Source: Carcharhinus amblyrhynchos (taxonomy: Eukaryota). Taken from it: DNA of 64,000 bases. The position numbers were made by a program. Positions 24,001-53,400 of the stretch are shown here, in pieces. The stretch covers positions 62,682,001-62,746,000 of the forward strand of contig OZ336885.1 in assembly GCA_965287045.1 (NCBI GenBank), in the 5' to 3' direction. Numbering within the stretch: position 1 is the first letter of the stretch; every line of letters begins with the position of its first letter.

Positions 24001-27000
24001 CACACGCGTCAGCTGGCTGCGGTCTCCTTACTTCAGCTTTGCCAGTGTCTGACATTGTGCCACACTTCATCACAACAAACAGATGTATATCCACTTGATA
24101 AAAATGATTATCTTTCCGACTTTGCTAATTCCATTTGAATTTACAGAGATATGGAACATTCATTTTGCCATTTAATTTCGGGACGTTTTCCACGACTGTA
24201 TTTCAAAACTAAACCTTCGCTGGACGCAGGAATTACAAGTTAGTAACAAGATTTGATGTATGTACTGCTGTGTAGCACGGACGCTGGGCGCTGAAGGCCC
24301 ACCCCAAGGCAAACACGTTATCTTCCCACCTCCAACCAACATCATCACAAGCTCTGCCATTTGTACGTTCTTCTCCAGTTCCGCCAATGATTCCCTCACT
24401 CGAATACTCGATGCGACGAAGAATATTCAATTTTCGTGGTGTCGATGGCATTTTATAAGTATGTTAATGGATGTGTGCAACACTAGCTAGTATAAAACTA
24501 ATGGGTTACCTGTAATTGTTCTGCAGATGGTACTGATCAAAGTGCATTCTTGCACGGCTGCAGTACCTGAGATGTAGGTTCAACCATAGTGCTGGTAAGG
24601 AGGGAATTCCAGGATTTTCTCACAGCGACATTGAAGGACCGACAACTTTTTCCCAAGTCAGCATGGTGAGATAATTGAGGGGAAACTACAAGTCGTGGTG
24701 TTCACAGGTACACTCTGCTGTTTCTCCTCTACATCGTAGTGGCCGTGGGAATGCAATTATGGAAGCTATGCAACATCAGCGAGTTCCTGCAGTACATCTT
24801 GCAGGTAGTACGCCTTATTTCCAATGTGCTCCAGCGTTAGATGAATAGAATGTTTCTCGGACTGGCAGAATAAAACAGATTCATTTGTCTGGGATGTTTT
24901 GAAAATTGTGCCTTGTAATTGTCGAAACAAATTTCTGAATCAGCAGTTCTGTTCATCTCCGCAACACTCCTAGTCTGTTCTCTGATCAGATCGCAATAAT
25001 ATTTACATCGTTGGTCCAGTTCAGTTTCGTGTCAATTGTATAAACAATAGCATAGATATCGTGGCCCTCAGTTATGACAATCGTGTTGAGTTTCAAGGGG
25101 AGATACTTAGAGTCTTAAGGCCACAGAAGTTTATAGCACCGAAATAGGCCTTTCAGCCCGACGTATCATTGCAGCCTTTTTTTAACTCTTCAGATAGACT
25201 CAATTGATCGCATTTAGCCCATGCTCCTCTGTAGTCATCTGATCTAAATGTGCTTTAAAATACAAAATTGTACCCGACTCTACTACTACATCTGGCAGCT
25301 TGATCCAGACATTCACTATTCTCCGAATGAAAAACAAACGCCCCTCTGGATCTTTCGTATCTCCCCCTTTCACCTTAAACTTATGCCGTCTAGTTTTAGA
25401 CTCCCGTAACTTTGGGGGAGATATTGACTTTCAAGCTGATCGATATCCCTCATTAATTTAGATATCTATAAGATCAACCTCTTACGCTCCAGAGAGAAAA
25501 AAAAAACAAAGTTCCAGCCAATGCAGCACCTCTATATGACTTCAACAATCAGGTCCCGGTAGCATCCTACCGGCAGGCTCTTCTGCACCCTTTCTAGTTT
25601 AGCAATATCATTTCTATAATCGTATGACGAGAACTGGACACTTTATTCCAAGCATGGTCTCACCAATGTCTTTTACAACTTCAACAACTGCTGTATTCAA
25701 GGATTTGACACATAGATGCAATTTTGTTTAAGATAACAATTGTTTGATAATTCTGTGTCACTTCTTCGCTCACCATTTCCCAGCCTATGCGGGATCTAGC
25801 TGCATTCGGAAATTGAATGTTTCATTTTTACTTGAATTGTCATATGTCTCCAAGCTTCATCGCAAACATTGACTCTCAGACAGCAGTGAGATGTAAGCAA
25901 AGTATTATTCACTGTTTCCCACTTCTGTGGCTCTGGAAAAAAAAAGTTATATGTTAAAAAAAAATCTTTTATTGGACTGGTATGTTCTACTTTCTACATT
26001 TTATCACATGTGCGAAATGCATCTCATCACTGGACATGGTTATGAATGTCGATAATTTCGTCTGAAGATGCAGAAAATGTGCTCAATTGTTTCCGAACAT
26101 CCAGTCTCTCTTTTGTTATCTGAATTTTCCACTGCAGAGTGAATGTTTTTTGAATAAACTATCAACATATTTACAATGTATACTTTGACAGAAAAATGGT
26201 AAAAAATGAATAATTAATTCGGAATAGCACATATAAAATGTGATAACCTATTGGGAAATAATGTGGTATTACACGAAATGTGGTTTTTTTTGTCGCTAAC
26301 AGAGGGGCAAATAAAAGATCTAAAAGAAGGTGAGTGGAGCAATCGATTGTCCTGTCCCTATTTGTGAATGGTTATCATATTGTACCATTAAAAAGTGCTT
26401 TCCAATCAGATCGTATACTAAGCGATTTGTTTTTGTTTTCAGACATGTTTTGAACTGAGTAAATCCTGCGAATGCAAGTCATCATTCATGCAAGATAGCT
26501 TTGCATGAATGAGATGTTGTAAAAGTTGGTCATACTGGGGGTTCACACGAACAATGGCCCTGTTTTTTTTTTCAGAAGAACGCCTTGCATTTGCTAATAA
26601 GATAGTTGATGCATCAGTTTTAATTTTCCGATTCCACTCGATTAATGAGAGATTCCGTAGATTGGAAGATAATAACAAAAAGTGAGACTTTTACTCCGAA
26701 AGACGGGGAGAGAAGGTCAAGAAAAAATATATATTTGCACGTTAGTCCAAAGCCTATCAGAGGGGAATTACAGGAATTATTTATTAGCATATGATAAGTG
26801 GGCAATTGATAAAATCCAGTGCCACGGGTAATGGTCATTTTTAAAGGGAAAACGCATCAGCCAATCTGTTGAAGTTATTTGAAGGTCGCTCGTGCTGTGG
26901 ATGCAGCAGAATCAAGGAGGTGTACTCTAATTGCATTTCCAGAACTTATTCAAAAATGTGCCACATCAAACGTTATTGCAGAAAATAAAAGATTAAGTTA

Positions 27001-50476: not shown

Positions 50477-53400
50477 CACACAACAAGAAACCGGACAAAG
50501 CAAAACGAGTGAAAAAAAAAGTAGGCTGAAACAAAACGTATTGTTAAGAAGTGTTTTAACATGATTTCTTCTATACTTCCCACAGTATGCACAGAAGCAA
50601 GCCGTATTTCTTTTGTGATCATATTTTCAAAAATTTCTTCGGTGACTTTGCAGTTTATTTTTGCGCAACTCCTGTTTCCTCATTGTGATCGAATTGTCTG
50701 TAAACAGGCGGATATATTATGATGTTTTTGAACACTAGAAAGATGGAAACGATAAATGTGCATCAGCACATGTGTAATGTGTGTTTATATGTGTGCGTGT
50801 GGGTGTCAGTTTGTGTGTATGCGCAGTTGTGGAATTGCTAATTCGAGGAGAGAAAAAAAATGTGCAAGTCACAAGTGCCAGTGAGTCTGATCACGGATTT
50901 GAATTAATGAAGAGCTATCGCACAGAGCAAGTTCAACTAAAAAAGACTGACGTTAGAAAAATGTCAACCTCATTTAAACTAATAAAGATTTGGATAGAGA
51001 AATAAATGAAAGGATGATAACTGCAAAAAAAGAAATATTCAGAAAAAAAGAATAATGTGCTAAGCAAATTGCTAGACTGACAGACCATCATGGTTAAGGT
51101 AAAAACTTTATAATTCCAACATTATTTGAAAATAAACGATGCAATATGGTCCTCATTACAAGATACGTAAGACAGAGAACTTAGTCGTCCAAAAGAGCAG
51201 GTTGCAAGAAATAAATGTGATAATTTCTTCAAGCAAGAGCCAGTTCGCATCAAGTAACTTGAGACCGAAGTGAGATAGGGAGTGGTGAATGAAAAAAAAA
51301 CAACTATTGCTATACAATGTTATTATGCCAGAAATGTAAATTGATTACGTTGCAACGGCATTCAAGGATTACAGGGGAGTGAGTGGTTTTCTCTGGGGAA
51401 ATAAAATGAAATATGACGTGAGACATGGAATGAAGATCAGTGGAGGAGATGGATTCTCTTAACTTATCCTGGATTGTTAGATTGTGGAACCTGAATCTCA
51501 TCGTGCTCAACCAAGCAGTTGCAGATTTACATTGGGGGATTTCATTCAAGTAAAAAATAACACAGAGTAAAGCAAGGTACAGAACAAGAAGAGGTTCTTT
51601 GACCCTTCATGTCTGTGCCAATCATGATGACGTCATTAAGTAATAAAATGAAAACATTCTGTCCTCACTGTCTCCATATCCCTATATTCCATCTCTATCC
51701 ATGTACCCACATAGAAGACTCTTAAGTGTTGCTGATGTGTTTGTTCCCACCATCCTCTCTGGCAGCGCGTTACTACCATGAAAAAATGACATGAAAATAT
51801 TCCTCCCCATATTTCACTTAAACTTCCCCCTCACCTTGAAGCCGTGCCCCGTTCAAATTAAAAATTCAACCCTGAGAAAACGACTTTGGCTATCCATCCT
51901 GTCTGTGCCGCTCACAAATTTATGATCACGTTCCTCGGCCTCCGAATGTCCAGTGAAAAGATTTCTTGGTTATTCAACCTCCTGTCATAGTCAACAACCT
52001 CGAGAACAGTAGAAATCCTGTTTTTTTTTGCACTATCTCCAAAACTTCCCGTTCCGCTGGTGAAGTGGCGACCAGAACTGCACGCACTACTGGAAATGAT
52101 TCTTAACCATGTGTTTACATTGCTACAAAATGAATACCCAATTGCTGTACTAAATGCTTCTCTTGCAATCTTTCCACGTTCTCCAGGAAATTTCCTTACT
52201 CATGGAAGCCCGGAAATACATTTGTAGCACAGACGGTTCAGTCAGTAGAATTTCAACGATGGCTTTGCTTTGAGATTCTCTTCGCAGAGTAATAATCAAC
52301 CGTCACATACCAATGTGAATGTTAGTTAATGTGTCGTAACGGATTTTTCAAAAGGTAGATTTATTTTTCAGAATCCATGAACAGCATTTCATGGAAAGGA
52401 GGAAAAGAAAACGTGACAAACGATTGAGAAAATACGTTGAGATCATCAGATATCAGGATCAATTGGATACAAACAAAGTGAAATTGGCAACATGGGAGGA
52501 AAAGAAACTGCGATCGAAACAGGAAATTGTTTTGAGTGACGAGCTGAGCGTTCGTTAAAATTGGAACAGGAAAAGGGCTGATATCAAAAAGTCGCGATTA
52601 AGGGTGAATGCAGAAGCTGACTTGGGACACATTGGAGCAAAGTGGCATGCGTAGATGCGCAGAACTTTAGGGAGTAATGCAGAATGGAGACGACATAAGG
52701 CATTGGCTTATTATTGAGTATCTGTTCCAAAAACGTAAGGATTTACACAGCAAAAGTGGTGCGGTTGTATGGCACATACCGTTGCCGTCCTGCTTTGGTT
52801 GATTAAAGTCGGCACGGTATGGAAGTTCAAAATTGATTTTGAAAATAAAATAGACGCAACGAAAGCCAAACACTTTAGGGGCAATTCGAATACGTAGATT
52901 CTTACAATGTGCGAAGTTGGATACCTCACCCTCTGTCACAATGACCCTATAATTGAACGAACATAATGCAGATGTCAGTAAATGCTTCTCAACAAATGTT
53001 TCTGGTGTGTTCACCGATCCAGAATTAAGCCGGTGTCAAGCAAACCTAAAGGATTCACGTAAGCACCCTGTTGCCAGTCTGCATGAAACTTCTCAATGTA
53101 GTTTTGTCATTAATTACATTTCGAATGTGCAGTTTCACTTTCTGTACAAATGCAAACTATTTTTTTGTTGTTGTTACCTGTAAGTCCTGCATACTTACAG
53201 CATGAAAAAGTTATATCCTCCGGAAATGGCAAATAACAAAATTCTTAAGAATGGATGTTGATAACGAGCTGTATCCATTGTGAACGCTTCTAGTGGTAAT
53301 TACATTCGCAGAGTTAAATCCAAGCCATTCATTTATATGCAATACTGTACATACAGAAGAGAAGGAAACTATTACAAAGACAACTATTGCTTTGTTTTGA

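What the first reader, a model, noticed from the sequence alone, without database searches (positions are those of the whole stretch)
26303..53058. Higher-order exon grammar: 21-aa A-C unit switches to a 39-aa B-C-A-A' unit
Seen: the exon order is A C A C A | B C A A' | B C A A' | B C | B C. A+C and B+C are each 21 aa (three heptads). B-C-A-A' is 39 aa, with core residues I4 L7 L11 C14 V18 L21 L25 and the next I at 43. Inference: 39 = four heptads plus one hendecad, so a periodic stutter is built into the exon structure. Single 9- or 12-aa exons keep the reading frame but shift the heptad register, so only certain exon combinations should give a continuous coil.
Basis: partly seen in the sequence, partly recalled or inferred. 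Interest (0 to 1): 0.7.

Follow-up and report, generated by a model that had tools for sequence, protein, structure and literature searches.

The report
Micro-exon array encoding a coiled coil
A long gene here is built from at least 18 tiny 27- and 36-base exons that spell out a charged, cysteine-bearing heptad-repeat helix, but the proposed 39-residue "stutter unit" rests on only two copies, one of them ambiguous.

Summary
The exons are real features and far beyond chance. On the + strand I find 18 paralogous exons of 27 or 36 nt between 74 and 61723. All have AG/GT borders, and all are open only in the phase where two bases finish a split codon.

Three corrections:
- The stated span 26303-53058 holds only 10 of these exons.
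- A sixth upstream exon (22077-22112, C type) was missed. With it the first 98 residues keep one unbroken heptad register.
- The second "39-aa" unit depends on a weak donor. A stronger donor 12 nt upstream gives a 15-nt exon and a 35-aa unit, which is five exact heptads.

A+C and B+C are each 21 aa, and B-C-A-A' is 39 aa (a shift of 4, arithmetically a stutter). However, the A-A' segment has almost no hydrophobic core and has the weakest donors. It may be an optional charged spacer rather than a built-in hendecad.

The gene and organism stay unidentified. Exons are too short for exon-wise searches, and the joined search and fold were left out. I do not take the contig for human.

The parts
74..100 (+). 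27-nt exon, class A (complete codons DKLADKEK)
   Evidence: donor score 7.1. Leave-one-out E=3.3e-05.
411..446 (+). 36-nt exon, class C (LWECKTSVQQL)
   Evidence: Found by the C profile without being in it (E=0.46). Leave-one-out E=0.003. Donor score 10.6.
9030..9056 (+). 27-nt exon, class A (ARLEETNG)
   Evidence: Found by the A/B profile without being in it (E=0.023). Donor score 6.7.
11072..11107 (+). 36-nt exon, class C (LSKCQEVSKEL)
   Evidence: blastn match to the flanked 44104 exon, 73.5% over 68 nt. Leave-one-out E=8.8e-07. Donor score 7.2.
21246..21272 (+). 27-nt exon, class A (EKLTAKER)
   Evidence: Leave-one-out E=3.2e-04. Donor score 4.3.
22077..22112 (+). 36-nt exon, class C (LAECITMSERF).
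   Evidence: good acceptor, donor score 7.0, and the invariant Cys. Not recovered by leave-one-out. Its inclusion keeps the heptad register continuous.
26303..26329 (+). 27-nt exon, class B (GQIKDLKE); start of the first 39-aa unit
   Evidence: (D8). Donor score 12.2. Nearest relative is B 60545.
30359..30394 (+). 36-nt exon, class C (LGNCQNTVKDL)
   Evidence: Donor score 10.6. Leave-one-out rank 1, E=0.46.
30778..30804 (+). 27-nt exon, class A (QRLREQEK)
   Evidence: 67.6% over 68 nt to exon 74. Donor score 5.0.
31145..31171 (+). 27-nt exon, class A' (AEKLAKEK)
   Evidence: 73.9% over 46 nt to exon 21246. Donor score 5.7.
34453..34479 (+). Probable dead B-type exon (no AG before, no GT after) inside the 12,032-nt intron
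   Evidence: colinear with the block 34178-34293 ~ 42944-43051 (70.7% over 116 nt). 14 of 27 nt equal to exon 43204-43230, counted by eye.
43204..43230 (+). 27-nt exon, class B (DRICELNA); start of the second unit
   Evidence: (D8). Donor score 9.7.
44104..44139 (+). 36-nt exon, class C (LSKCQESLKDT)
   Evidence: Leave-one-out E=1.6e-06. Donor score 7.6.
46458..46484 (+). Class A exon (KKLRGKEK) with two possible donors. The 27-nt form has a weak donor. The alternative 15-nt form, 46458-46472, has a stronger one.
   Evidence: Donor score 1.8 versus 7.0. Not recovered by leave-one-out. The 15-nt form makes the unit 35 aa.
47892..47918 (+). 27-nt exon, class A' (AISEAKEK)
   Evidence: Leave-one-out E=0.0056. 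Donor score 5.1. A 54-nt alternative with donor score 6.0 exists but has no paralogue support.
50134..50160 (+). 27-nt exon, class B (DMIFELKE)
   Evidence: (D8). Donor score 6.2. Nearest relative is B 43204.
53023..53058 (+). 36-nt exon, class C (LSRCQANLKDS); ends in C, not G
   Evidence: Donor score 6.4. Leave-one-out E=0.053.
60545..60571 (+).
   Evidence: Donor score 6.1. Leave-one-out E=0.0084.
61688..61723 (+).
   Evidence: Donor score 11.1. Leave-one-out E=9.7e-04.

Best explanation
The whole 64-kb window lies inside one + strand gene of a non-human eukaryote. Its coding part here is an array of at least 18 symmetric, phase-1 micro-exons: 549 nt, or 0.86% of the window, separated by introns of 310-12,032 nt.

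The array grew by old tandem duplication of an exon pair, 27 nt plus 36 nt, that together encode 21 residues. These are three heptads of a charged alpha-helical coiled coil, with an invariant cysteine at a core 'd' position. Because every exon is a multiple of three and in the same phase, any subset stays in frame. The heptad register is kept only when 9-aa and 12-aa exons come in pairs.

The two '39-aa units' arise where two extra 27-nt exons (A, A') follow a B-C pair without 36-nt partners of their own. These two exons encode an 18-residue, Glu/Lys-rich stretch with almost no hydrophobic core, and they have the weakest splice donors. Most likely they are spacer or cassette exons. When both are included they shift the register by +4, a stutter in the formal sense. 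When both are skipped, or when the 15-nt form is used in the second unit, the heptads stay continuous.

Shown: the exons, their paralogy, phase, composition, lengths and register arithmetic.
Inferred: that they are spliced together in this order, that the product is a coiled coil, that the Cys forms interchain bonds, and that A/A' are optional.
For: - Exons and splice sites. 17 of 18 donors lie above the 90th percentile of 3540 GT sites.
- One phase is open in 18 of 18 exons, against 7 and 9 of 18 for the other two.
- Third codon positions vary most in class B (difference fractions 0.13/0.30/0.57) and more than second positions in class C (0.36 vs 0.61).
- Identity is confined to the exon plus about 20 nt upstream and 10 nt downstream. 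Introns share nothing else, so the duplications are old and the exons have been kept.
- Leave-one-out recovers 16 of 18 exons. All profile hits with E<0.5 are on the + strand.
- Generic scan: 10 hits on + versus 1 on - in that phase; 0 of 200 resamples reach 10.
- Composition: 0 Pro and 80 of 165 residues D/E/K/R/Q; 0 of 1000 random sets have no Pro.
- Cys is invariant in 7 of 7 C exons. Position 4 of A and B exons is L/I in 9 of 9.
- The a/d register is unbroken over cumulative residues 1-98.
- Every 36-nt exon directly follows a 27-nt exon, p=0.010 for a random order.
- A/A' donors are weaker than B/C donors, p=0.005.
- A dead B-like exon sits in the 12-kb intron, which shows turnover of units.
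Against: - No transcript, orthologue or protein match supports the splice model.
- Two exon-wise protein searches (one C exon in its 76-aa open genomic frame; profile of all 7 C exons) gave no hit at E<=10. They covered only proteins of 134/145-2000 aa, and a 12-aa match cannot reach significance, so this is weak evidence either way. The A, A' and B classes were not searched.
- Two exons (22077, 46458) fail leave-one-out.
- Eight of the 18 exons fail the generic scan's thresholds.
- Other splice-compatible, phase-compatible ORF pieces exist in the introns, for example 46825-46917 and 45721-45834, and cannot be excluded as exons.
- The donor score uses my own approximate recollection of the metazoan consensus, not a trained model.
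- The claim that A/A' are optional rests on four exons.
Confidence: 0.55

Rival explanations
1. B-C-A-A' is a constitutive 39-residue super-repeat, with all four exons always included. The rod then carries a stutter at a fixed period (four heptads plus a hendecad, or three heptads plus an 18/5 segment), which relaxes the supercoil at regular intervals.
For: - 39 = 4 mod 7 and A+A' = 18 residues. That is exactly the 7+7+4 case described for delocalised stutters (PMC4786415, passages).
- The order B C A A' occurs twice.
- In unit 1 the continuing register places A32, L35 and K39 before I43.
- A' 47892 has A' 31145 as its nearest relative, and the B exons form one cluster.
Against: - There are only two units. 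The next two B-C pairs have no A/A'.
- Unit 2 is 35 aa with the stronger donor.
- The core positions in A-A' hold 1 strong hydrophobic in 8 cells.
- A 30778 is closest to exon 74, not to A 46458 (0.67 vs 0.44). C 44104 is closest to C 11072, not to C 30359. So a block duplication of the four-exon unit is not evident.
Confidence: 0.2
2. There is no 39-residue period at all. Unit 2 uses the 15-nt form of exon 46458 and is 35 aa (five heptads). The only break in register is then the single 18-residue insert in unit 1.
For: - The donor after 46472 scores 7.0, against 1.8 for the 27-nt form.
- B+C+5+9 = 35 = 0 mod 7.
- The 27-nt form contains a Gly in mid-exon and is not recovered by leave-one-out.
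Against: - The paralogous A exons are all 27 nt, and the 27-nt frame of 46458 is still open and Lys/Glu-rich to its end.
- A 15-nt exon is very short for exon definition (general knowledge).
- The donor scores come from a rough matrix.
Confidence: 0.3
3. The array, or part of it, is a decaying relic: pseudo-exons of a gene that is no longer expressed or that uses only a few of these exons.
For: - A dead B-like copy at 34453-34479 has lost both splice sites.
- Two members are weak.
- No protein containing a C-type exon was found.
Against: - 18 of 18 exons keep AG and GT and an open phase-1 frame, although the introns have diverged to background.
- The codon-position pattern is that of coding constraint.
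- There is no Pro in 165 codons.
Confidence: 0.1
4. Chance: AG...GT intervals of these lengths in A/G-rich sequence merely look like exons.
For: Splice-compatible open intervals without paralogues do occur in the window. The - strand also yields 24 raw candidates.
Against: together: strand asymmetry, leave-one-out recovery, 0 of 200 and 0 of 1000 controls, and a single common phase.
Confidence: 0.01

Closest known systems
Coiled coils with stutters and hendecads (intermediate filaments and lamins, trimeric autotransporter stalks)
   Same: A 4-residue surplus over whole heptads is accommodated as 11/3 or 18/5 (PMC4786415, Introduction passages read). Here A+A' adds 18 residues, which is 7+7+4.
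   Different: In the known cases the stutter is a feature of the protein sequence, with core residues in place. Here it would be produced by exon content, and the core positions are mostly charged. No homology was tested.
Tropoelastin gene architecture (recalled; no call)
   Same: Many small exons, all multiples of three and all splitting codons in the same phase. Two exon classes alternate, introns are long, and any cassette skip is in frame.
   Different: Elastin exons encode hydrophobic and Lys-Ala cross-link segments, not heptads. Here the composition is Glu/Lys/Leu with an invariant Cys. This is a resemblance of gene structure only.
Collagen 54-bp-derived exons, titin PEVK and nebulin super-repeats (recalled; no call)
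   Same: Exon length is tied to the structural period of the protein, and higher-order exon blocks are duplicated in tandem.
   Different: There each exon holds whole structural units. Here the structural unit (a heptad) is never an exon: exons are 9 and 12 residues, and only pairs restore the period. Block duplication of the four-exon unit is not evident.
Schistosome micro-exon genes (MEGs)
   Same: Short symmetric exons with long introns. The abstract of bioRxiv 10.1101/2023.06.21.545858, seen in the search listing, gives exons of 3-81 bp and introns up to 5 kb.
   Different: MEG products are small secreted proteins, described as hydrophobic and disordered in the abstract of PMC10399815 (listing). 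Here there is a long charged helical repeat. The gene ends and the organism are unknown. No sequence relation was tested.
Tropomyosin (recalled; no call)
   Same: A two-stranded coiled coil with a sequence period of roughly 39 residues and a core cysteine.
   Different: Tropomyosin keeps an unbroken heptad pattern and is encoded by ordinary-sized exons. The 39-residue period here is seen at most twice. Likeness was not tested, because a joined query was left out.

Membership tests
alpha-helical coiled coil (heptad repeat) | Hydrophobic residues alternating at 3- and 4-residue spacing (a/d) over several heptads | tested here: met
   a/d positions carry L/I/V/C/F through cumulative residues 1-98. 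In the B-C-(L25) blocks of the two units, 13 of 14 core cells are strong hydrophobics.
alpha-helical coiled coil (heptad repeat) | Helix-compatible, charged composition without proline | tested here: met
   0 Pro and 5 Gly among 165 codons; 80 of 165 are D/E/K/R/Q. 0 of 1000 random sets have no Pro.
alpha-helical coiled coil (heptad repeat) | High score in a coiled-coil predictor, or a helical oligomer in structure prediction | not tested
   This needs the spliced peptide. Single exons (9-12 aa) are below the 30-aa minimum of the folding tool, and the joined step was left out.
coiled coil with periodic stutter (hendecad or 18/5) | A surplus of 4 residues over whole heptads at a regular interval | tested here: inconclusive
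   39 = 4 mod 7 and the register shift is seen. But there are only two units, and the second is 35 aa with the stronger donor.
coiled coil with periodic stutter (hendecad or 18/5) | Core-type residues at the extra core positions of the hendecad | tested here: not met
   Local positions 28, 32, 35 and 39 in the two units hold Q/K, A/A, L/E and K/K. That is 1 strong hydrophobic in 8 cells.
symmetric micro-exon gene of the schistosome MEG type | Most coding exons 36 bp or shorter, multiples of three, with long introns | tested here: met
   18 of 18 exons are 27 or 36 nt; introns are 310-12,032 nt.
symmetric micro-exon gene of the schistosome MEG type | Small secreted product with a signal peptide; trematode origin | not testable with these tools
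   The gene ends lie outside the window and the organism is unknown.
tropomyosin | Unbroken heptads throughout, with a period of about 39 residues repeated about seven times, and sequence similarity | tested here: not met
   The register breaks after each 39-aa unit, and there are only two units. Similarity was not tested because the joined query was left out. The feature list is recalled.
tropoelastin-type exon architecture | All exons in one phase, multiples of three, with two alternating classes | tested here: met
   This concerns architecture only. The elastin-type composition is not met.

The most novel reading that the evidence does not exclude
An unannotated structural gene in which the coiled-coil register is set by exon choice. 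The 9-aa and 12-aa micro-exons act as 'letters' worth 2 and 5 in heptad arithmetic. Paired 9+12 exons extend a canonical, Cys-stapled coil. Regulated inclusion of 9+9 pairs inserts delocalised stutters (18/5), giving a rod with a 39-residue super-period. Splicing would then tune pitch, length and partner spacing of a filament-binding or extracellular rod.
Probability: 0.12. Interest if true: 0.75.

Novelty: new variant of a known kind. Interest (0 to 1): 0.45.

Why it matters
Tandem arrays of symmetric small exons are known for elastin, collagens, titin and nebulin, where exon length equals a whole structural unit. Here the exons are shorter than the structural period and only pairs restore it. 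In-frame exon skipping would therefore change the register of the helix as well as its length. If transcripts show register-preserving co-skipping, or regulated inclusion of the 18-residue pair, it would be a clear natural case of splicing acting on coiled-coil geometry.

It also matters practically. Arrays of 27-36-nt exons spread over more than 64 kb are the kind of gene that annotation pipelines miss. The two exon-wise searches found no protein carrying the C-type exon (weak evidence).

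Tried and rejected
- The same tool with one C exon inside its 76-aa stop-free genomic frame returned 5 candidates, none at E<=10. With an alignment of the seven C exons in their open genomic frames it returned 1398 candidates, none at E<=10. The third allowed search was not used, and the A, A' and B classes were not searched.
- The folding, representative-search, atlas, PDB and family tools need 20-30 aa or more, so they cannot take a single exon and were not tried on exons.
- Rfam: 0 matches.
- Pfam on 20 ATG/GTG/TTG ORFs gave 0 families. 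Pfam on the 150 longest of 153 stop-free frames of 80 aa or more gave one marginal match (HRXXH, E=0.0064), taken as noise.
- A peptide-motif regex found only 3 of the 7 C exons, and my first strict splice filter found only a few exons. Both were replaced by blastn and nhmmer.
- In one search the last C exon was entered 2 nt off (61690-61725). This was corrected to 61688-61723 from then on.
- No C-type remnant was found after A or A' (no further hit with E<3). A C-like peptide at 33451-33483 is in another phase and has no donor, so I do not count it as an exon.
- Literature: nine full-text searches found no paper on a coiled-coil gene built of 27/36-nt exons, and none holding the 7-residue motif of exon C. 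PMC5082667 holds none of 'stutter', 'hendecad', 'stammer' or 'skip'.
No eukaryotic genome or transcript collection was available, so orthologues and expression stayed unchecked.

Full report
WHAT THE WINDOW IS. The window has 64,000 bases and no N. G+C is 42.5% and CpG observed/expected is 0.68. A self-comparison finds only two dispersed repeat pairs in 64 kb and no family of short interspersed copies. On these grounds I do not take the contig for human. The organism stays unknown. Rfam gives nothing. None of 20 ORFs has a Pfam family. Of the 150 longest of 153 stop-free frames of 80 aa or more, only one has a match, a marginal one at E=0.0064. Apart from what follows, the window looks non-coding.

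THE EXONS. Direct-repeat search first showed three copies of a 27-nt block bordered by AG and GT (family D8). Scans for AG-N27/36-GT intervals, blastn of each candidate with 150-nt flanks and nhmmer profiles then gave 18 exons on the + strand. Their coordinates are listed under parts. Seven are 36 nt (class C). Eleven are 27 nt (classes A, A' and B). Two of them, 411-446 and 9030-9056, were found by profiles that did not contain them. Together they make 549 nt, or 0.86% of the window. The introns range from 310 to 12,032 nt, with a median of 2,215.

IS IT MORE THAN CHANCE? Yes, by six independent measures.
1. Only the phase in which the first two bases finish a codon is stop-free in 18 of 18 exons. 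The other two phases are open in 7 and 9 of 18.
2. 17 of 18 donors score above the 90th percentile (4.2) of all 3540 GT sites on the strand. The matrix is my approximate recollection of the metazoan consensus.
3. In leave-one-out nhmmer, 16 of 18 left-out exons are the best non-training hit in the window, always on the + strand. The best other hits have E of 0.33 or more. The two misses are 22077 and 46458.
4. A scan that knows nothing of paralogy (pyrimidine-rich acceptor, 27 or 36 nt, donor at least 4.2, open, at least 40% D/E/K/R/Q) finds 10 intervals on the + strand in that phase. All ten are array exons, so 8 of the 18 fail these thresholds. The - strand gives 1 in that phase (5 and 4 in the other two), and 200 first-order Markov resamples give at most 6.
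5. Counted exon by exon, the 165 complete codons hold 0 Pro and 80 D/E/K/R/Q. In 1000 random stop-free sets of the same sizes, Pro averages 9.0 and is never 0, and the charged count never exceeds 57.
6. Mean pairwise identity among paralogues is 0.49-0.51 in the exons, 0.41-0.50 in the 20 nt upstream and 0.47-0.59 in the 10 nt downstream. It is 0.26-0.30 further out. Introns share nothing else.

Third codon positions differ most in class B (0.13/0.30/0.57), and more than second positions in class C (0.36 vs 0.61). Old duplicates in which only the exon and its splice signals survive are what purifying selection on real exons produces.

Numbering from exon 26303 reproduces I4, L7, L11, C14, V18, L21, L25 and I43. 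A+C and B+C are 21 codons, and B+C+A+A' is 39. Four points differ:
- The quoted order covers 74-61723. The stated span 26303-53058 holds only B C A A' B C A A' B C.
- There is a further C-type exon at 22077-22112. It has a good acceptor, a donor score of 7.0 and the class-invariant Cys, although it is the most divergent C and fails leave-one-out. With it the array begins (A C)x3 and the a/d register runs unbroken through cumulative residue 98. Without it, A would abut B and the register would jump by 2.
- The 27-nt form of exon 46458 has a donor score of 1.8. A donor 12 nt upstream scores 7.0 and gives a 15-nt exon. Unit 2 is then 35 aa, exactly five heptads.

REGISTER. I did this by arithmetic on per-exon residue lists. 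Under continuous numbering, strong hydrophobics sit at a and d for the first ten exons. After the first A-A' pair they move to e and a, and after the second to b and e. The invariant Cys is at d four times, then at a, then at e twice. An insertion of 4 is a stutter, taken up as 11/3 or, over two heptads, as 18/5. Insertions of 2 or 6 are the hardest to accommodate (PMC4786415, Introduction passages). A+A' is 18 residues. A single 9-aa exon adds 2, the worst case, and a single 12-aa exon adds 5.

WHY I DO NOT ACCEPT A BUILT-IN PERIODIC STUTTER AS SHOWN.
- There are two units at most, and one is ambiguous.
- The positions that must form the core across A-A' (local 28, 32, 35, 39) read Q/K, A/A, L/E and K/K. 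That is one strong hydrophobic in eight cells, against 13 of 14 at positions 4-25. The A and A' exons are essentially Glu/Lys/Arg/Ala helices with a single Leu or Ile each.
- The four A/A' donors of the units (5.0, 1.8, 5.7, 5.1) all lie below all eleven B and C donors (6.1-12.2), Mann-Whitney p=0.005. With the alternative donor p=0.019. Weak sites are typical of optional exons (general knowledge).
- The two units are not consistently each other's nearest relatives. A 30778 is closest to exon 74 (0.67 vs 0.44 to A 46458). A' 31145 is closest to exon 21246 (0.64; 0.60 to A' 47892). C 44104 is closest to C 11072. A recent block duplication of a four-exon super-repeat is therefore not evident.
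- The 12,032-nt intron after the first unit holds what looks like a dead B exon at 34453-34479. It has lost both splice dinucleotides and is colinear with a 116-nt block, 34178-34293, that matches the sequence upstream of B 43204. Units are gained and lost, so the present order is a snapshot.

ORDER RULES THAT DO HOLD. Every one of the 7 C exons directly follows a 27-nt exon (p=0.010 for a random order of 11 short and 7 long exons). B is followed by C in 4 of 4 cases. The B exons form a tight class with I at position 4 and L at position 7 in 4 of 4. The A exons have L at position 4 in 5 of 5, but a polar residue at position 7.

MOST LIKELY MECHANISM. An ancestral 27+36-nt exon pair encoding three heptads was duplicated in tandem many times. 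The common phase keeps every splice combination in frame, and pairing of a 9-aa with a 12-aa exon keeps the heptads. An invariant Cys at d every 21 residues would allow interchain disulfides in a parallel in-register oligomer (inference). A and A' are unpartnered copies of the 27-nt class. They add a charged 18-residue stretch and a +4 shift when included, and they are probably regulated (inference).

WHAT STAYED OPEN.
- The gene could not be named. Exons of 9-12 aa are below the minimum of every protein tool (minimum 40).
- Two single-exon searches, padded only by the exon's own contiguous genomic frame, found nothing at E<=10 among proteins of 134/145-2000 aa. This is weak evidence, and the A, A' and B classes were not searched.
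- Nine literature searches found no description of such a gene.
- Comparisons with elastin, collagen, titin/nebulin and tropomyosin are from recall. The comparison with schistosome micro-exon genes rests on abstracts seen in the listing. No supplements were needed.

VERDICT. The micro-exon array is real and unusual. The 21-aa arithmetic and the quoted residues are right. The 39-aa 'grammar' is a correct description of one unit and a possible description of a second. Its reading as a periodic, functional stutter is unproven and, on core residues and splice strength, less likely than optional charged spacer exons.

Noticed in passing
34453-34479 (with 34178-34293): A 27-nt stretch resembles a B exon: 14 of 27 nt equal exon 43204-43230. 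It has no AG before and no GT after. It lies at the right distance downstream of a 116-nt block that matches 42944-43051 at 70.7%. It is probably a dead exon of a lost unit in the 12-kb intron.
   Followed up: partly
33451-33483: This stretch translates to a peptide resembling the divergent C exon 22077, but in another phase and without a donor at 36 nt. The C profile does not detect it. It is either chance or a very decayed copy.
   Followed up: partly
1627-2093 and 25254-25718: The only sizeable dispersed repeat in the window: 68.5% identity over 486 nt, same orientation. Its nature is unknown, and no Pfam match lies in overlapping frames.
   Followed up: no
28193-29089; also about 33500-33580, 35480-35560, 39280-39375, 44941-44979, 46972-47040: Long C-runs and G-runs lie in the introns. 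At 28.2-29.1 kb a C-rich block is followed by a G-rich block, with 36-nt inverted arms at 28457-28492 and 29054-29089 that are 86% complementary. These blocks raise G+C to 50-55% in 28-30, 32-36 and 38-42 kb.
   Followed up: partly
57926-58031: A 53-nt unit is duplicated in tandem at 98% identity.
   Followed up: no
40141-40209, - strand: A 69-nt interval has the strongest splice-like borders on the minus strand in my scan (acceptor 7.6, donor 10.8) and an open frame. It has no paralogue and no family match. It remains unexplained.
   Followed up: no
whole window: Among the 150 longest stop-free frames there is no recognisable transposon protein remnant or other large exon. This is notable for introns of up to 12 kb.
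   Followed up: yes
donors of the seven A/A' exons (74, 9030, 21246, 30778, 31145, 46458, 47892): All seven A-class donors lack G at intron position +5 and score 1.8-7.1. The B and C donors score 6.1-12.2. All A/A' versus B+C gives p=0.005.
   Followed up: partly
43204-43230: This B exon carries an extra Cys next to its core Ile (exon position 5), unlike the other three B exons.
   Followed up: no
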